DNA from: Escherichia phage OES_C-1 | Length of the DNA: 64,000 nt | Direction: 5' to 3' (one strand) | Sequence record: PQ553088 | Shown here: one piece after another, positions 1,176-7,248 of the stretch | Numbering within the stretch: position 1 is the first letter of the stretch | Layout: each line of letters starts with the position of its first letter | Notes under the pieces: generated by a model | Database searches by the model: none | What the model was told of the DNA's origin: nothing | The model's input: only the letters and a program-made list of their open reading frames with translations | Made by a program: the position numbers and the translations under genes

Positions 1176-3272
1176 TTATCCTTGAACGAACTTGTAAGGC
1201 ATGTTTGTAATATCTATGCAAGACGCAATAATTCCAAGAGATGATTCTACTTTCTGTTTAACATTTGATGAAACAAATGATGCAAAGTCAACTCTGTCTT
1301 CTATTTCAATATCACCTGTCATTGCAACTACTTCACCAGTTTCCATTAGACGGTCACCGTCATAAATTACTGATTCGGTGAGTTCTTCCGTAGTCATAAC
1401 TTCAGCTTGAATGAGTTTTGTATTATTAGATGTTGTTCCGTCATTATTAGAAGCATCAGTTATTTTATTAACTTTGACCATCAATCCGCGTGGTAGAATT
1501 ACTTCAGCTTCTGTTGCTATTCCGAGACTTCCTGGATATACAACATTAACTTTATGAGCTCCATCAATTGCCCATCCTATTTGAACTTTAACGTATTCAG
1601 GATTTTCTTTATACGCTCTTATTTCGTTTGGATTAATAGTTATTCCTTCTTCATTTTTATCAACTGTTAATTCATTGCGAGCTTCTGGTTCTAAAAGACC
1701 GATACCAGCATGTGTAATTCCAAAACGTCCAAAAATGATAGGAGTTAAAGAAGTAGATACAAAATTTCTGAAATAGAACACTTTATTTTTAACTAGTGCT
1801 TCGTATATAGGAGCAGTCATACTTTGAGCACGATAAACTGTAATGCCTTCTGGTATACGGTCACCATTTTCAAAAGCTGAATCTAAGTTATTTATAGCAG
1901 ATTCAATTTCTTTTTCACTCATTACATCATATCGTTCTGGATTGTAGCGGCCTAAAAGAAGATTATTGATGTCAGTATATCCTGATCCACAATACTCTCT
2001 AATGCCGCGCTTTTGCGATGGAGTATATTTAGAACCATCACGTGCAATGGTAATATCAATCATTGGACCTGCACCAATTCCAGAAAAGCTATAAATCATT
2101 CGTTTGAGGAATTTAGTTTTTGCTGCGTTCCAGGAATTTTTAGTTATTTCTTCCCAGACTTCATCTGGCTGCCCTTTACGAGTTTTATTATGTTTATCAA
2201 GCCAATTATCTTTATATTCTTCAAAGAGTTGATTAATAGCTGCTGCGTATTTCTCTAAACATTTTATTGAAGTAGTTGGTTCATTTTTAATCGCATTAAG
2301 AATTACATCTTTAATTTTTTCAGAAACTTCATCAACCTCACTTTTTGAAAAGAATTTATAGTCATAGTGAAGTTCATTTGCAGTTCCTTCGGCAATAATT
2401 TTTGCTGCCTTAGTTTTAGAAGCTAATGAATTAATTCCAAGCTTCATTTCTTCTGCTTCGGGAATTAAAGGAGCGGTAGCAGGTTTATTAAAATTAGCTG
2501 CGGTAGATTCATACTTCTGGAATAATTCACTTTCAAATCTAGAAGATTCTAATGACTGACTTTGCGCAATTGCTCTACGGGAAATTTTAACTTTAACAAT
2601 AACAGCTTGGTCAGAACGTTTATCATTTTCTTGTGCAATAGATGCTGCAATTGCCTCATTTTTAGTTACTTGAGCTCCGGTATCTTTATTGATATAAACA
2701 TCGCCGACCTTCGATTCAACTTTAGTAAAGAGCTCGGTACTAATTTCCGGAACTCCTGGAATGTCTTCTAGTGATACATTTTTGCGATGTATAAGAATAT
2801 ATGCATACTTTTTATCATAATCCCAGAGTTCCTTAAGAAGGACGTATCTGCCACCTGAACGACTACGGATAAGTCTATCAGCAATAACTTGAATTTGTCG
2901 AGCTTGACCAGCAGTTTTAGACTTAAGAATACGAAGCATACAGGCATCAATTTTATACTGACGCATTGTTTGCATTGCAACAGTAAAAACTGAATTGATG
3001 TAATTAATTGGGCTTGGACCGAGACCTTTTAATTTAGCAATTGAACCTTTAGCAGTTAGTGTAAAAGGAACAATGTGCATCATTTTATCGCCCATCTTTA
3101 AATCACGGTTAGTATCACCTCCAGATGTATATGTACATAAACGAAAGCCTGGTTGCTCAATTGCGTCATCAACATGAACTGAAAAAATTTGCGGTATTTT
3201 CTTCTTTGGATTTAAGTTTGTAATCGGAAGAGTAGTATCTTCGTCAAATAATTCTGTAATAAGTTCCATCAT
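1176..3272 (-). CDS. alt: Alt ADP-ribosyltransferase (packaged internal head protein)
   Basis: 698-codon ORF; N-terminal MELITELFDED prohead-protease/capsid-targeting signal; C-terminal R-S-ExE ART motifs (VYRAQ, STS, ATEAEV); true start probably second Met (3269). Confidence 0.9.
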   Translation of the reverse strand: MMELITELFDEDTTLPITNLNPKKKIPQIFSVHVDDAIEQPGFRLCTYTSGGDTNRDLKMGDKMMHIVPFTLTAKGSIAKLKGLGPSPINYINSVFTVAMQTMRQYKIDACMLRILKSKTAGQARQIQVIADRLIRSRSGGRYVLLKELWDYDKKYAYILIHRKNVSLEDIPGVPEISTELFTKVESKVGDVYINKDTGAQVTKNEAIAASIAQENDKRSDQAVIVKVKISRRAIAQSQSLESSRFESELFQKYESTAANFNKPATAPLIPEAEEMKLGINSLASKTKAAKIIAEGTANELHYDYKFFSKSEVDEVSEKIKDVILNAIKNEPTTSIKCLEKYAAAINQLFEEYKDNWLDKHNKTRKGQPDEVWEEITKNSWNAAKTKFLKRMIYSFSGIGAGPMIDITIARDGSKYTPSQKRGIREYCGSGYTDINNLLLGRYNPERYDVMSEKEIESAINNLDSAFENGDRIPEGITVYRAQSMTAPIYEALVKNKVFYFRNFVSTSLTPIIFGRFGITHAGIGLLEPEARNELTVDKNEEGITINPNEIRAYKENPEYVKVQIGWAIDGAHKVNVVYPGSLGIATEAEVILPRGLMVKVNKITDASNNDGTTSNNTKLIQAEVMTTEELTESVIYDGDRLMETGEVVAMTGDIEIEDRVDFASFVSSNVKQKVESSLGIIASCIDITNMPYKFVQG

Positions 3273-3321: not shown

Positions 3322-3510
3322 TTAATAATCTAGTGGTAAGAGAGTACGGTATATTTCAAACTTTGGACCTTTTTCGTAGGCATCAAATGTTTCTGTAAAT
3401 TTATTATAAGCATACGCATCTACAAATTCGAGAATGACTTGCGATACCGAAGTAGAAACATCTCCACCTTCTTTTTGAGCAACGACAATTGTTTCTAAGT
3501 AAGCTTTCAT
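3322..3510 (-). CDS. hypothetical small protein (62 aa)
   Basis: ORF track; start overlaps the ligase stop (ATGA). Confidence 0.45.
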   Translation of the reverse strand: MKAYLETIVVAQKEGGDVSTSVSQVILEFVDAYAYNKFTETFDAYEKGPKFEIYRTLLPLDY

Positions 3511-4967
3511 AGACCAGTTACCTCATGAAAATCACCAAATACATCCTCGAATGTATTAGCTTTAGTTTTATCTTCACGTAAACGAATCGCAATTGGAAGA
3601 AATAATTTAACGTAATCAGTGCGGCCATCAGATTTTAACCAACCGTTGCATTCGCACTCTAAAATTTTTCCAATATAATAATTTTGGTTTTCCATAATGC
3701 GAGTACGGTCAAGTTCATGTGATTTTACACCAGCTTTATCTTTTAAGCCCGAACCAGCATTTACCTTAATTTTTCCACACTCTGATTCAAGAATAAATCC
3801 ACCTGCTTTAGTAGGGTCTTTACGGTGAGGATAAATTCCTACAATTTTTAAATCAACATCAATTACTTCTTTAAATTTATAGAGATTTTTTGAACGAGCA
3901 TTTTCCCACAATCCATCGGTATTTTTGAGAATAATACCTTCAAGACCTTGGTCAATATATTTTTTATAAATTACCTTAGCTTCATCTAGGTTATTTACTA
4001 CCTGGTTTTCAATTAAAATTACTTTATCATATCCTGATGTCATTTGTTCTAGTTTAGAAAAACGTACATCATATTTTAAACGAAACGTCGGAAGACCGTA
4101 TATTTCTACTAACGGAACATAATCCCAGACCTGAAACTTCATGCATTTGGCTTCTTTTTCTGAAATAGTTCCCTTTAAAGATTTATTGGCGATTCCATTA
4201 GAAGCAGTACGAGATTCAGCTACTTCGGCAAACTCTTTAGCTTTACTATTTTCAGGAGCATCAAAAAGAAAATCTAGGCCTTCTGGTTCCTTTTCAACTT
4301 GCTCATGGTATACCAATTCGCCATCAATTAACACACCTTCTGGATGAATCTGGCGGGCTTCAGCGGTCATTTTGATTAACTCTTCCTTAAGAAGATCTAA
4401 TCCTAGATATTCATTACCAGCTCGTGATAAAAGACGAACATCATCTAATTCATCTCCTCTGACTTCAGCAAAACACCGAGCTCCATCTGCTTTTAACTGC
4501 GCAAAAGCTGGAAATTTTATATTCTTACTAATGCCTTTTTCATCATAAGAACTTGCCAGCATTTGAGGTTGTTCAGGAATTAAACCTGGCCAAACTTTGT
4601 TTGCAATAGATACTGAAGCACCACATTCAAGGTCTCGCATCATAACTCGACGCAAAACTTCAACATCATCCTTTTTACCATCGGTGATATAACCAGTTAA
4701 TTCCTCAATTGCCGCGTTTCCAGTCAATTTCCGAGTAGCTAACGTGAATTCAATGAAGTCAAGCATATCGGTAATAGTCAGCATTCCAAAACTCTGGGTA
4801 GCAATACCAGGTTTAGGCCATTTCTTAATATAATACTGTAACCCGCGAGAATAAGTCAGACGATATACTCGTTTAAGCAATTCATTATCTTTATTCTTTT
4901 CAAGAATTGCTTGCTTCTGCTTAGTTGATCCAATAGATGCTATTTCATTCAGAATTTTAAGAATCAT
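3507..4967 (-). CDS. 30: ATP-dependent DNA ligase
   Basis: 486 aa; adenylation motif KADGAR; sequence recognised as T4 DNA ligase. Confidence 0.95.
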   Translation of the reverse strand: MILKILNEIASIGSTKQKQAILEKNKDNELLKRVYRLTYSRGLQYYIKKWPKPGIATQSFGMLTITDMLDFIEFTLATRKLTGNAAIEELTGYITDGKKDDVEVLRRVMMRDLECGASVSIANKVWPGLIPEQPQMLASSYDEKGISKNIKFPAFAQLKADGARCFAEVRGDELDDVRLLSRAGNEYLGLDLLKEELIKMTAEARQIHPEGVLIDGELVYHEQVEKEPEGLDFLFDAPENSKAKEFAEVAESRTASNGIANKSLKGTISEKEAKCMKFQVWDYVPLVEIYGLPTFRLKYDVRFSKLEQMTSGYDKVILIENQVVNNLDEAKVIYKKYIDQGLEGIILKNTDGLWENARSKNLYKFKEVIDVDLKIVGIYPHRKDPTKAGGFILESECGKIKVNAGSGLKDKAGVKSHELDRTRIMENQNYYIGKILECECNGWLKSDGRTDYVKLFLPIAIRLREDKTKANTFEDVFGDFHEVTGL

Positions 4968-5233
4968 TGCTCATCCTTCAAGGTTTGGTTTACAGCTCTA
5001 TTATAAATCAATTCATCATTAAGCTCAGGCAAAGACTTATGATATGTAGTTCTAACTTTATTTCCTTGCATCCAGTGCTTGACGTAAATGAAACCTTGCT
5101 CTACACATTTTTTAAAAATTCGTTCGTCTTTTTGAGCTCGGAATTCTGGATTGCATCTAAAAAATTGATTTACGTGACCGTAATCACGTGTAGTATTACC
5201 TTCATTTTCATAAATAGTATGAACAACAAACAT
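4964..5233 (-). CDS. hypothetical protein (T4 30.1-like position)
   Basis: ORF track 89 aa; overlaps neighbours by 4 nt. Confidence 0.5.
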   Translation of the reverse strand: MFVVHTIYENEGNTTRDYGHVNQFFRCNPEFRAQKDERIFKKCVEQGFIYVKHWMQGNKVRTTYHKSLPELNDELIYNRAVNQTLKDEQ

Positions 5234-6072
5234 TAGAATGCTCCTTGAAAAATATTATCACCACTAGTAGGTCTATTATACAAATACTCTATGCCACCAG
5301 GTTTAATATAGTTCCATGTCTGAAACGGATGTGTCTGATATGGATGATATAGATGATTATAAGGATTTAATCCAGGCGTTCTCCAGGTAGTGTTCCAAGG
5401 AAAAGAATCGTTTTTAACCATCTTCTCAATTACATCTTTTATAGCTTTTTCACTATCAAAACTTTCTTTATTTTCCTTTGGTGAAAAAAGCTTATTTTCT
5501 ACATCATTCCATGTATAAACTCGCTGGGCAGTTTTTGGAATATTGTCACGCTCTCCTCGAGCCATCCAATAAACTGGAACATTTAATATTTCACTCGCAT
5601 GATCGCAGTGGTGAGCGAGATCGTCAATATAACAAATTACGTTATATTTCTCTTTTGCCTTTTTGAACAACTCTTCTTTTGAAGAATCATGACCGCACAT
5701 CATTACTTCTGAGAAGGCACCAGGAAAAAGAGCATTCAAATTAAATTGACGATTCAACAGAGCGTCAATAGAATCACCCAATGCTGTAACAGCTACAAAA
5801 TTATAATCTTCTTTTAATTTGTTAATTACACACAGAGCATCTTTATATGGAGACAAGTAACGAATAAAATCTGAACGATTATATTTTTCAATTAACTTGA
5901 CGCCAAGTTCTTCATCACAATTAAAGAGTTTACCTGGAGAAATAAATTTCTCATCTTGGATCATTTTTAAAATATGTTCTAACGGAAGATTATATTTCTG
6001 AGCAAAATAAGGAAGGCCTGATTGCCAGCTTAAACATACTCCATCAATATCAGTTAAAATAGTTGGCTTCAT
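5233..6072 (-). CDS. HAD-superfamily hydrolase-like protein (T4 30.2-like position)
   Basis: 279 aa; N-terminal LTDIDGV (HAD motif I), downstream YIDDLAHH (DD motif). Confidence 0.55.
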   Translation of the reverse strand: MKPTILTDIDGVCLSWQSGLPYFAQKYNLPLEHILKMIQDEKFISPGKLFNCDEELGVKLIEKYNRSDFIRYLSPYKDALCVINKLKEDYNFVAVTALGDSIDALLNRQFNLNALFPGAFSEVMMCGHDSSKEELFKKAKEKYNVICYIDDLAHHCDHASEILNVPVYWMARGERDNIPKTAQRVYTWNDVENKLFSPKENKESFDSEKAIKDVIEKMVKNDSFPWNTTWRTPGLNPYNHLYHPYQTHPFQTWNYIKPGGIEYLYNRPTSGDNIFQGAF

Positions 6073-6533
6073 AGAGAGTCTCTTAATAGGTTTAACACAT
6101 CAATAAATTCAGCTTCGGTTAGTATTGTATCATCTTTTGTTAGACCACTAGCCATGCTGTGCTTCAAAACTTTTCCTTTCGAGGCTTGTAATGCATCACG
6201 AAAGCCCCTGTTTTGGATCGCTGCTTCAAAATATGCATTTGTGTATAATTCTTTCCACGCCGGGGAGTATCTTGAAAACGGAACTCCAAGCCAAAAGAGG
6301 GTCCCACGGTCCTGAGCTCTAGCATAAGACCTTCCAGCTTGTTGGGCGGCAAGCCCGGATAACCCAAATATACGTCTTTGCTGTTCAACATTTTTCACCT
6401 TACATCCTTGGAGGAATCCTTCGAGACCTCCAAATTGGATACCATCCATAGCGAAAGGCCATTGGGCGAAATTGCTTAATGCACATGATGGCCATCTAAA
6501 ATTGCTTCTTATTTCTAGCTCAGACATTTTCAA
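6069..6533 (-). CDS. NADAR/YbiA-like (DUF1768-type) protein (T4 30.3-like position)
   Basis: 154 aa; LSNFAQWPFAMDG...GR resembles the FSNFAAWP...DG signature of E. coli YbiA (from memory). Confidence 0.5.
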   Translation of the reverse strand: MKMSELEIRSNFRWPSCALSNFAQWPFAMDGIQFGGLEGFLQGCKVKNVEQQRRIFGLSGLAAQQAGRSYARAQDRGTLFWLGVPFSRYSPAWKELYTNAYFEAAIQNRGFRDALQASKGKVLKHSMASGLTKDDTILTEAEFIDVLNLLRDSL

Positions 6534-6726
6534 TACTTATAATTTCAACATCAGCCCAATGACCATAGCAAGGAAGACGAAATTCAACTGGCCAGTTAGG
6601 GTCCTTTTCTAATATAATAGACTTAACTTGTGGTTCTTCATGTTCATCGGTATACGGACCTTTATACGTTACTTTATATGTGACCTTAATGTACTGAATT
6701 CCAAAAATCTTATTAATTATATTCAT
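6520..6726 (-). CDS. hypothetical protein (68 aa)
   Basis: ORF track; tightly packed early-gene block. Confidence 0.45.
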   Translation of the reverse strand: MNIINKIFGIQYIKVTYKVTYKGPYTDEHEEPQVKSIILEKDPNWPVEFRLPCYGHWADVEIISIENV

Positions 6727-6920
6727 ACTAATTCCTTTAATCCATAGATAGGAGATAATTCATCACCCATACGAAGGTCTTCATTTCCATCTACCCAGGA
6801 AACAATATAAGCCTCTTTTATTTGAATACCACTCCATTTAAATGGAGGTAGAACCTTAGAAATTAATCCAGGTATACCGACTCCCTTTAATTCAACAGTT
6901 TGACCCAAAAAGAATTTCAT
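6723..6920 (-). CDS. hypothetical protein (65 aa)
   Basis: ORF track; 4-nt overlap with neighbours. Confidence 0.45.
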   Translation of the reverse strand: MKFFLGQTVELKGVGIPGLISKVLPPFKWSGIQIKEAYIVSWVDGNEDLRMGDELSPIYGLKELV

Positions 6921-7207: not shown

Positions 7208-7248
7208 AGTATTTTCCTCAGTAAGGGGCCGAAGCCCCTTATTTTATT

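What the first reader, a model, noticed from the sequence alone, without database searches (positions are those of the whole stretch)
5233..6533. HAD-like hydrolase plus NADAR/YbiA-like protein in the alt/ligase neighbourhood
The 154-aa protein has a SNFAQWP...DG signature resembling YbiA/NADAR (DUF1768) proteins, which are implicated in ADP-ribose and NAD-derived N-glycoside processing. It is translationally coupled to a HAD-family phosphatase-like protein. In a genome with three ADP-ribosyltransferases (alt, modA, modB) this pair could process ADP-ribose-derived metabolites or reverse nucleic-acid ADP-ribosylation as counter-defence. The function is inferred from motifs only.
Basis: inference. 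Interest (0 to 1): 0.45.

Follow-up and report, generated by a model that had tools for sequence, protein, structure and literature searches.

The report
Known phage anti-DarT enzyme plus phosphatase
The 152-residue protein is phage T4's already characterised AdfN enzyme, which strips a host defence's ADP-ribose marks off phage DNA, and its neighbour is a real but uncharacterised phosphatase that published data show AdfN does not need, so the finding is correct but largely known.

Summary
The window is a T4-type phage (Tequatrovirus). The two ORFs are T4 genes 30.3 and 30.2, lying between 30.4 and 30.1/DNA ligase/alt.

Gene 30.3 is 98% identical to T4 gp30.3. Its likely start is the ATG at 6527, giving 152 aa rather than 154. 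I confirmed a NADAR fold with catalytic E36, K43 and the phage-type H123, and an intact C-terminal helix. This protein is already published as AdfN. It is a DNA ADP-ribosylglycohydrolase that reverses guanine ADP-ribosylation by the host DarT1 toxin (Nat Commun 2025; Toxins 2024).

Gene 30.2 is a genuine HAD-superfamily phosphatase with all four motifs and a helical C1 cap. Its weak closest matches are 5'(3')-deoxyribonucleotidases. It has a disordered C-terminal tail and no published function.

The proposed functional pairing is not supported:
- A 4-nt overlap is the default between genes in this block.
- 30.2 tracks DNA ligase (75 of 80 loci) more than AdfN (37 of 80).
- In a published T4 transposon screen on DarTG1, 30.3 insertions are lost (log2FC -7.25), while 30.2 insertions are neutral (-0.12).

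The main result is already known. Only the substrate and role of 30.2 remain open.

The parts
6069..6527 (-). adfN (T4 gene 30.3), 152 aa: NADAR-family DNA ADP-ribosylglycohydrolase and anti-DarTG1 factor. The in-frame TTG at 6533 gives the 154-aa reading.
   Evidence: 98% identical to T4 gp30.3. Pfam PF08010 E=5e-69. 18 of 40 family members also hit Pfam NADAR PF08719. AF2 pLDDT 93. The three best Foldseek PDB hits are all NADAR structures: 2b3w, 8bau, 8bat. Function published for the T4 protein.
6420..6422 (-). Codon for Glu36, a catalytic residue of AdfN
   Evidence: Invariant in the 40-sequence family alignment. E36A impairs T4 AdfN. GAA read directly.
6399..6401 (-). Codon for Lys43, a catalytic residue of AdfN
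   Evidence: At least 90% conserved. K43A impairs T4 AdfN. AAG read directly.
6159..6161 (-). Codon for His123, in the last beta-strand. This is the phage-type residue that replaces Glu (YbiA) or Asp (DarT1-linked NADARs).
   Evidence: Invariant. Strand E120-123 in the model. Described as the hallmark of gp30.3-type NADARs in PMC11125620.
6075..6116 (-). C-terminal helix of AdfN (residues 138-151), intact here
   Evidence: Helix H138-151 in the model. The RB69 allele is truncated 15 residues early by a frameshift and is non-functional, and truncated T4 AdfN has reduced activity.
5233..6072 (-). T4 gene 30.2 orthologue, 279 aa: HAD-superfamily phosphatase with unknown substrate
5488..6072 (-). 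HAD core plus C1 helical cap (residues 1-195; cap about 16-86). Motif I is D8/D10 (6043-6051), motif II T96 (5785-5787), motif III K132 (5677-5679), motif IV D150-D151 (5620-5625).
   Evidence: D8, D10 and K132 are invariant; T96, D150 and D151 are at least 90% conserved. Secondary structure places five to six helices between strand 4-7 and strand 91-96. The cap aligns with mouse cytosolic 5'(3')-deoxyribonucleotidase at E=0.045.
5236..5487 (-). Variable C-terminal tail of gp30.2 (residues 196-279). One helix spans 207-220, and the rest is predicted disordered.
   Evidence: pLDDT below 50 for 225-231, 239-261 and 266-279. The tail is absent or unrelated in many homologues of about 200 aa.
6069..6072 (-). 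ATGA overlap: the 30.3 stop (TGA) shares bases with the 30.2 start (ATG)
   Evidence: Read. The same kind of 1-, 4- or 8-nt overlap joins alt.1/30, 30/30.1, 30.1/30.2, 30.3/30.4, 30.4/30.5 and 30.5/30.6.

Best explanation
These are two separately acting early genes of a T4-type phage that sit side by side through inherited gene order.

(1) Gene 30.3 is adfN. It encodes a stand-alone NADAR enzyme that hydrolyses the N-glycosidic bond between ADP-ribose and guanine in DNA. This removes the marks that the host DarT1 toxin places on phage DNA, so replication can proceed in DarTG1-carrying hosts. The catalytic residues are E36 and K43, with H123 in the last strand, and the C-terminal helix is needed for full activity. 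The identity of the gene is shown here; the function is shown in the literature for a 98%-identical protein.

(2) Gene 30.2 encodes a catalytically competent, Mg-dependent HAD phosphomonoesterase. Its helical C1 cap points to a small-molecule substrate. The substrate is most likely a (deoxy)nucleoside monophosphate, as in NT5C-type 5'(3')-deoxyribonucleotidases. The fold and motifs are shown here; the substrate is inferred from weak similarity.

Gene 30.2 is not required for AdfN's anti-DarTG1 function.
For: Identity of the region. It is collinear with T4 genes 30 to 30.7.

AdfN (30.3).
- It is 98% identical to T4 gp30.3.
- E36 and H123 are invariant and K43 is at least 90% conserved across 40 relatives.
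- The AF2 model has pLDDT 93 and pTM 0.88.
- The top three Foldseek PDB hits are YbiA 2b3w (E=5e-5, TM 0.69), Phytophthora NADAR 8bau and Geobacter DarT1-linked NADAR 8bat; every lower-ranked hit had E above 2.
- The family profile hits YbiA in PDB sequences at E=0.0018.
- 18 of 40 members hit Pfam NADAR, best E=1.5e-7.
- Published work: T4 delta-adfN is DarTG1-sensitive; ectopic AdfN rescues RB69; purified AdfN removes ADP-ribose from DarT1-modified DNA; E36A and K43A are impaired (PMC11825919). Guanine-specific and not thymine-specific activity was shown in vitro (PMC11125620).

gp30.2.
- D8-x-D10, T96, K132 and D150-D151 are conserved.
- The core has pLDDT above 90.
- There are 109 Foldseek HAD hits with E below 1e-3, including cdN, mdN and the deoxyribonucleotidase-like 3bwv.
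- The only near-significant PDB sequence hit is mouse cdN, aligned across motif I, the cap and motif II.
- 8 of 40 members hit Pfam NT5C, best E=1.2e-4.

Independence of the two genes.
- In the T4 HIDEN-SEQ screen, control versus DarTG1, 30.3 has log2FC -7.25 (adjusted p 0). 30.2 has 71 sites, log2FC -0.12, p=0.61 (bioRxiv 10.1101/2025.11.20.689424, supplementary file 7).
- 30.2 is non-essential on K-12, with 72 of 72 sites hit, and neutral in LB versus M9.
- Purified AdfN is active alone in vitro.
- Of 80 loci carrying a 30.2 homologue, 75 also carry DNA ligase within the flank, but only 37 carry AdfN within 1.2 kb and 21 have it directly adjacent.
- At least nine phage genomes carry both genes 55-60 kb apart.
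Against: No experiment was run on this window's proteins; their function is transferred from T4 orthologues.

The substrate of gp30.2 is not established.
- The window protein itself hits no Pfam family.
- The cdN alignment is only E=0.045.

The Tn-seq result shows dispensability in one host and medium only. It does not exclude a contributory or redundant role.

The order AdfN then 30.2 then ligase recurs in E. coli, Acinetobacter and Aeromonas T4-like phages. A looser functional link therefore cannot be ruled out.

Published work says AdfN needs an unidentified T-even factor for full activity.
Confidence: 0.8

Rival explanations
1. The NADAR and the HAD phosphatase form a two-step pathway. AdfN releases ADP-ribose or a related N-glycoside, and gp30.2 dephosphorylates a downstream product such as ribose-5-phosphate, AMP or a phospho-ADP-ribose. 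This would clear ADP-ribose-derived metabolites, possibly in connection with the phage's own Alt/ModA/ModB.
For: The genes are adjacent with an ATGA overlap. AdfN lies within 1.2 kb upstream of the HAD gene in 37 of 80 loci, including distant Acinetobacter and Aeromonas T4-like phages. Both genes are near-universal in Straboviridae, with almost the same counts by host genus.
Against: 30.2 insertions are neutral on DarTG1 while 30.3 insertions are lost. AdfN works alone in vitro. Overlapping stop and start codons are the default in this block. Many phages keep both genes 55-60 kb apart. Most of the 80 AdfN loci have no HAD gene within 6 kb. The genome-level co-occurrence is confounded by shared T4-like ancestry. 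HAD enzymes cleave phosphomonoesters, so they cannot act on ADP-ribose directly.
Confidence: 0.07
2. gp30.2 is the unidentified T-even factor that AdfN needs for full activity in cells.
For: AdfN fully rescues RB69 but only weakly rescues T5 and Bas25, and it does not detoxify DarT1 in uninfected E. coli. The authors therefore infer a T-even-encoded helper. gp30.2 is the immediate downstream neighbour. A 30.2 gene is drawn beside 30.3 in the RB69/T2 chimera map, and Mosigvirus-type loci carry a homologue.
Against: T4 with insertions in 30.2 is as fit on DarTG1 as on the control (log2FC -0.12, 71 sites). This is not expected of a required helper. There is no obvious way a small-molecule phosphatase would stabilise or localise a DNA glycohydrolase.
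Confidence: 0.03
3. gp30.2 is a nucleic-acid end-healing 3'-phosphatase that prepares nicks for the adjacent DNA ligase. This would be analogous to the HAD phosphatase domain of T4 Pnkp or eukaryotic PNKP.
Confidence: 0.08
4. gp30.2 is a dNMP phosphatase used as a counter-defence. It would be analogous to T5 Dmp, which depletes dAMP and so blocks the dITP-signalling Kongming system that is triggered by phage dNMP kinases.
For: T5 Dmp is a HAD-type enzyme whose essential D22 is the first Asp of a DLDGT motif. It is a proven anti-Kongming factor found mainly in phages that carry dNMP kinases. T4 encodes dNMP kinase gp1 (listed). gp30.2's closest weak matches are deoxyribonucleotidases.
Against: The profile-profile comparison of the 30.2 and Dmp families is weak (probability 15%, E=0.0017), with agreement only at the HAD motifs. 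The held Kongming preprint does not mention T4-like phages under the terms searched. The substrate is unproven. T4 re-uses host dNMPs, so a broad dNMPase would be costly (my own knowledge).
Confidence: 0.12

Closest known systems
T4 AdfN (gp30.3), anti-DarT factor NADAR (Johannesman et al., Nat Commun 2025, PMC11825919; in vitro work in Toxins 2024, PMC11125620)
   Same: Orthologue. It has 98% identity, the same 152-aa length, the same flanking genes (30.4 upstream, 30.2 downstream), E36/K43/H123 and an intact C-terminal helix.
   Different: There are three conservative substitutions relative to T4: A26 for V, R106 for K and M125 for I. None is at a catalytic position, and M125 is the family consensus.
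DarG1-type (DarT1-associated, BC4488-family) NADAR antitoxins, e.g. Geobacter lovleyi NADAR (PDB 8bat)
   Same: Same fold and the same reaction, removal of ADP-ribose from guanine in DNA. The literature describes them as the closest relatives of the phage clade.
   Different: The phage protein has no N-terminal extension. It has His instead of Asp in the last strand. It is not encoded next to a DarT toxin. It cannot replace the antitoxin in uninfected cells.
E. coli YbiA (PDB 2b3w) and the riboflavin-intermediate N-glycosidase branch of NADAR
   Same: It is the best structural match (TM 0.69) and the only PDB sequence-profile hit. It shares the SNFA-W/H-P-F...DG and E-x-F-Q-x-x-K motifs.
   Different: Identity is 17%. 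YbiA has Glu where the phage protein has His123, and it has a housekeeping or other role. The NCBIfam riboflavin N-glycosidase model scores far below its cut-off (12.4 versus 73.7 bits).
Cytosolic and mitochondrial 5'(3')-deoxyribonucleotidases (NT5C family, PF06941; PDB 2jao, 2i7d, 1q92) and the bacterial deoxyribonucleotidase-like protein 3bwv
   Same: HAD core with a helical C1 cap of similar size. Motif I context is DxDGV-x-x-x-aromatic. The cap aligns over about 100 residues. From memory only (Wallden et al. 2007, not verified here), W16, F43 and Y64 of gp30.2 fall on the base and sugar-contacting Phe18, Phe44 and Tyr65 of human cdN.
   Different: Identity is 16-21%. The window protein does not reach any Pfam threshold. 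It has an extra disordered tail of about 85 residues. Its activity has not been tested.
T5 Dmp, deoxynucleoside-5'-monophosphatase and anti-Kongming factor (bioRxiv 10.1101/2024.12.20.629578)
   Same: A phage-encoded early HAD-type phosphatase with DxDG, Lys and DD motifs. It could be a functional analogue.
   Different: It belongs to a separate family (PF26880 versus phrog_420). The profile-profile probability is only 15%.

Membership tests
NADAR superfamily (YbiA fold; Pfam PF08719 / PF08010) | [quoted passage not shown] | tested here: met
   AF2 pLDDT 93 and pTM 0.88 with alternating short strands and helices. The top three Foldseek PDB hits are the NADAR structures 2b3w, 8bau and 8bat; every lower-ranked hit had E above 2.
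NADAR superfamily (YbiA fold; Pfam PF08719 / PF08010) | Sequence-profile membership | tested here: met
   PF08010 Phage_30_3 E=5e-69 against a cut-off of 36 bits. The window protein itself does not hit PF08719, but 18 of 40 family members do, best E=1.5e-7. The family profile hits YbiA at E=0.0018.
NADAR superfamily (YbiA fold; Pfam PF08719 / PF08010) | Conserved catalytic Glu and Lys (E36 and K43 in T4 numbering) | tested here: met
   E36 is invariant and K43 is at least 90% conserved in the 40-sequence alignment, and both are present in the window protein. Their roles were shown by mutagenesis in PMC11825919.
NADAR superfamily (YbiA fold; Pfam PF08719 / PF08010) | Charged catalytic residue in the last strand: Glu in YbiA, Asp in DarT1-linked NADARs, His in phage gp30.3 types | tested here: met
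   H123 is invariant and lies in strand E120-123. This places the protein in the phage gp30.3 subtype.
NADAR superfamily (YbiA fold; Pfam PF08719 / PF08010) | Hydrolysis of ADP-ribose from guanine in DNA | not testable with these tools
   Shown in vitro for T4 gp30.3, which is 98% identical, in two papers.
AdfN (T4 30.3 orthologue group) | Orthology to T4 30.3: high identity, same length and same flanking genes | tested here: met
   98% identity, 152 aa, and the order 30.4 / 30.3 / 30.2 / 30.1 / 30.
AdfN (T4 30.3 orthologue group) | Intact C-terminal helix (its loss in RB69 abolishes protection) | tested here: met
   The reading frame is full length, ending ...LNLLRDSL, with helix 138-151 in the model. 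The RB69 truncation is described.
AdfN (T4 30.3 orthologue group) | Confers resistance to DarTG1 during infection | not testable with these tools
   Shown for T4 by deletion and complementation and by transposon screen (log2FC -7.25).
HAD (haloacid dehalogenase-like) phosphatase superfamily | Motif I DxD (nucleophile and acid/base Asp), motif II Thr/Ser, motif III Lys, motif IV DD | tested here: met
   D8 and D10 invariant, T96 at least 90% conserved, K132 invariant, D150 and D151 at least 90% conserved.
HAD (haloacid dehalogenase-like) phosphatase superfamily | Rossmann-like HAD core fold | tested here: met
HAD (haloacid dehalogenase-like) phosphatase superfamily | Pfam or NCBIfam threshold for a HAD model | tested here: not met
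   The window protein hits no Pfam or NCBIfam model at E up to 1. Among relatives, 10 of 40 hit Hydrolase and 5 of 40 hit HAD_2 at weak E-values (0.00035 and 0.0076). Membership therefore rests on fold and motifs.
NT5C-type 5'(3')-deoxyribonucleotidase (PF06941) | Profile membership | tested here: inconclusive
   There is no hit for the window protein. 8 of 40 relatives hit NT5C, best E=1.2e-4. The family profile against mouse cdN gives E=0.045.
NT5C-type 5'(3')-deoxyribonucleotidase (PF06941) | Helical C1 cap carrying aromatic residues that hold the nucleoside | tested here: inconclusive
   The cap is present, with helices between residues 16 and 86. Conserved W16, F43 and Y64 align with aromatic positions of cdN. 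The roles of those cdN residues are recalled from memory and were not verified here.
NT5C-type 5'(3')-deoxyribonucleotidase (PF06941) | dNMP phosphatase activity | not testable with these tools
   I found no report on gp30.2 in the held literature.
T5 Dmp family (PF26880) | Profile-profile similarity beyond the shared HAD motifs | tested here: not met
   hhalign of A3 against A4 gives probability 15% and E=0.0017, with only motifs I, III and IV coinciding.
Capless HAD polynucleotide 3'-phosphatases (T4 Pnkp / PNKP type) | No cap domain, so the active site is open to nucleic-acid ends | tested here: not met

The most novel reading that the evidence does not exclude
gp30.2 founds a distinct, widespread phage HAD family (about 1,400 clusters at 50% identity). 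Its role would be a conditional counter-defence or nucleotide-pool function that has not yet been assayed. One option is a dNMP/dIMP phosphatase that blunts nucleotide-signalling immunity such as Kongming, analogous to T5 Dmp. Another is an enzyme that cooperates with the adjacent DNA ligase. It could still modulate AdfN under conditions other than the single DarTG1 screen.
Probability: 0.15. Interest if true: 0.45.

Novelty: already known. Interest (0 to 1): 0.15.

Why it matters
The NADAR assignment matters because it explains how T-even phages resist DarTG1. That result has already been published and independently confirmed by a genome-wide screen, so this window adds only another intact allele.

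The useful residue is gp30.2. It is a conserved, non-essential and apparently active phosphatase, present in nearly all T4-like phages and almost always next to DNA ligase, with no assigned substrate. The data here narrow what it is (a capped, small-molecule HAD, nearest to deoxyribonucleotidases). They also narrow what it is not (an obligatory partner of AdfN). This gives a short list of assays for one of T4's roughly 100 genes of unknown function.

Tried and rejected
- Single-sequence searches of gp30.2 against Pfam, NCBIfam and PDB sequences gave nothing. The classification needed family alignments and structure prediction.
- Literature searches for gp30.2, gene 30.2, NP_049815 and T4p204 found no functional study. 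A search for core or quasi-core listings of 30.2 found nothing useful.
- I considered HAD-ligase adjacency as evidence of function. I rejected it as weak, because T4-like genomes are collinear and a divergent T4-like contig keeps the HAD gene in the same region without a ligase.
- I looked for informative domain fusions among 150 remote relatives. Only one was found, a fusion to a domain that PHROGs labels DNA polymerase. It is a single metagenomic contig with no Pfam or PDB support.
- Homology between gp30.2 and T5 Dmp holds at superfamily level only.
- I tried to verify from the held papers which cdN/mdN residues contact the substrate, and did not find it. That point stays a recollection.
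- The promoter scan of the region found no more sites than shuffled sequence (21 versus 18.4 +/- 4.9), so I drew no inference about the transcription unit.
I repeated it without that row.
Full report
**What is at the coordinates**

The stretch 4900-6800 is 100% identical to Escherichia phage OES_C-2 and about 98% identical to hundreds of Tequatrovirus records. On the minus strand the ORFs run 30.4 (6520-6726), 30.3 (6069-6533), 30.2 (5233-6072), 30.1 (4964-5233) and DNA ligase gene 30 (3507-4967). Alt.1 and Alt (1176-3272) lie further downstream. This is the same order as in the T4 reference annotation.

T4 annotates 30.3 as 152 aa from an ATG. In the window that ATG is at 6527 and overlaps the 30.4 stop codon. 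Genes 30.3 and 30.2 share an ATGA overlap at 6069-6072.

**The NADAR protein**

- The window protein matches Pfam Phage_30_3 at E=5e-69.
- It is 98% identical to T4 gp30.3. The three substitutions lie away from conserved positions.
- In an alignment of 40 relatives down to 35% identity, E36 and H123 are invariant and K43 is at least 90% conserved.
- Eighteen of those 40 sequences also hit Pfam NADAR (PF08719), best E=1.5e-7.
- The family profile finds E. coli YbiA among all PDB sequences at E=0.0018.
- An AlphaFold2 model (pLDDT 93, pTM 0.88) has as its three best Foldseek PDB matches YbiA (2b3w, TM 0.69), Phytophthora NADAR with ADP-ribose (8bau) and Geobacter lovleyi NADAR (8bat). Every lower-ranked hit had E above 2.

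Neither is met.

**This is already known**

Johannesman et al. (Nat Commun 2025, PMC11825919) renamed T4 30.3 as adfN, anti-DarT factor NADAR. Their findings were:
- Chimeric phages mapped DarTG1 resistance to the 3' end of 30.3.
- RB69 carries a frameshifted allele truncated 15 residues early and is sensitive.
- Ectopic AdfN rescues RB69.
- E36A, K43A and the truncation impair AdfN.
- Purified AdfN removes ADP-ribose from DarT1-modified DNA.

Toxins 2024 (PMC11125620) showed that the T4 NADAR hydrolyses ADP-ribose from guanine but not from thymine. It also described His in the last strand as the hallmark of gp30.3-type NADARs.

A 2022 survey had already placed NADAR domains in T4-like phages as early genes expressed alongside the ADP-ribosyltransferases.

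A 2025 preprint (HIDEN-SEQ) recovered 30.3/adfN as conditionally essential on DarTG1. It also found tk.4/AdfM as the anti-DarTG2 macrodomain.

The window copy is full length, with the C-terminal helix (residues 138-151) intact.

**The HAD protein**

gp30.2 hits phrog_420 (function unknown) but no Pfam or NCBIfam model on its own.

An alignment of 40 relatives shows the four HAD motifs. D8 and D10 are invariant, T96 is at least 90% conserved, K132 is invariant, and D150-D151 are at least 90% conserved.

The AlphaFold2 model has a confident core (residues 1-195, pLDDT above 90). It has a helical insert at residues 16-86 between motifs I and II, which is a C1 cap. The tail beyond about residue 225 is disordered.

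By sequence profile, the only near-significant PDB hit is mouse cytosolic deoxyribonucleotidase (E=0.045). It aligns through motif I, the whole cap and motif II. Eight of 40 relatives hit Pfam NT5C, best E=1.2e-4.

I conclude that gp30.2 is a competent HAD phosphomonoesterase for a small substrate, most likely a (deoxy)nucleotide. The substrate is an inference from weak similarity.

The family is large, with 1,376 clusters at 50% identity at E up to 1e-3. Most members are about 200 aa and lack the tail. I found no functional study of 30.2 in the held literature.

**Do the two proteins work together?**

Four lines of evidence argue against it.

1. The overlap is not specific. In this block alt.1/30, 30/30.1, 30.1/30.2, 30.2/30.3, 30.3/30.4, 30.4/30.5 and 30.5/30.6 all overlap by 1-8 nt.
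2. The synteny favours ligase over AdfN.
   - Among 80 viral loci found with the 30.2 profile, 75 carry DNA ligase within the flank, 62 of them within 300 nt. Only 37 carry AdfN within 1.2 kb upstream, and 21 have it directly adjacent.
   - Among 80 loci found with the AdfN profile, only about 20 have the HAD gene within 6 kb.
   - At least nine T4-like genomes carry both genes 55-60 kb apart.
   - Both genes occur in about 1,450-1,500 phage records with nearly identical counts by host genus. This reflects shared Straboviridae ancestry rather than a specific link.
3. AdfN is active alone in vitro.
4. Published T4 transposon-screen data are the most direct test.
   - In the control-versus-DarTG1 comparison, 30.3 has log2FC -7.25 (adjusted p 0). 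30.2, with 71 insertion sites, has log2FC -0.12 (p=0.61).
   - That table follows Data S5 and precedes S7 and S8, so it is Data S6.
   - 30.2 is also non-essential on K-12 (72 of 72 sites hit) and neutral in LB versus M9.

The published work leaves one open point. AdfN works fully only during T-even infection, which implies an unidentified phage helper. The neutral 30.2 result makes gp30.2 a poor candidate for that helper.

**Other readings of gp30.2**

Its near-constant position next to DNA ligase suggested an end-healing role. The capped architecture argues against a nucleic-acid substrate. T4-like genomes are also collinear, and a divergent contig keeps the HAD gene in the same region without a ligase.

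A second lead is T5 Dmp. This HAD-type dNMP 5'-phosphatase was recently shown to block the Kongming system by depleting dAMP. T4 encodes a dNMP kinase, which is the class of protein that triggers Kongming. However, the 30.2 and Dmp families agree only at the HAD motifs (hhalign probability 15%). This is a testable analogy, not homology.

**Verdict**

The result is already known.

The proposed NADAR-HAD partnership is not supported and is contradicted for DarTG1. The proposed connection to Alt/ModA/ModB has no support. What remains open is the substrate and biological role of gp30.2.

Noticed in passing
window 6164-6391 (- strand): A 75-codon ORF lies in the +1 frame inside adfN. T4 annotates it as 30.3' (internal translation in a different frame). 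It stays open (76 codons) in 11 of the 12 full-length close loci scanned, both Tequatrovirus and the 84%-identity group, but not in distant AdfN genes. Whether it is expressed or merely tolerated is unknown.
   Followed up: partly
window 6520-6726 (- strand), gene 30.4: In the published T4 screen on DarTG1, insertions in 30.4, immediately upstream of adfN, are also depleted (log2FC -1.79, adjusted p 0.014). 30.5 shows -3.0 but is not significant. The 30.4 stop overlaps the adfN start (ATGTCTGA). The likely cause is a polar or translational-coupling effect on adfN, but a role for 30.4 itself is not excluded.
   Followed up: partly
window 5236-5487 (- strand), gp30.2 residues 196-279: The tail of gp30.2 is predicted disordered, yet it carries a short motif (G-[TG]-G-I-E-Y-L-x-x-Q/R-P-T) near its end. 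The motif recurs in Escherichia, Klebsiella and Enterobacter-type homologues and is absent from the roughly 200-aa versions. It could be a docking peptide.
   Followed up: no
window 7220-7243: A GC-rich 10-bp hairpin (AAGGGGCCGAAGCCCCTT) followed by a T-run sits in the 41-nt gap between 30.7 and 30.6. This is the only real intergenic gap between 30.7 and the ligase. The scan reported it on the + strand, opposite to the genes.
   Followed up: no
L163 5001-6776 (JGI metagenome contig, 58 kb): A 591-aa protein (P0236) fuses an N-terminal domain matching a PHROG labelled DNA polymerase (E=2e-34) to a C-terminal 30.2-like HAD domain. It is a single example with no Pfam or PDB support for the N-terminal part.
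   Followed up: partly
L157 3928-6591 (also L158, L159): In a divergent group of phage contigs of about 170-180 kb, the order is reversed. Ligase comes first, then two small ORFs, then the 196-aa HAD gene, all on the same strand and with a PhoH-like gene upstream. The two genes stay close despite the rearrangement.
   Followed up: partly
literature (PMC11125620, methods): The Toxins 2024 paper lists its 'E. coli T4 phage NADAR (gp30.3)' construct as residues 1-208, whereas T4 gp30.3 is 152 aa in the reference annotation. The construct may be from another phage or may include extra sequence.
   Followed up: no
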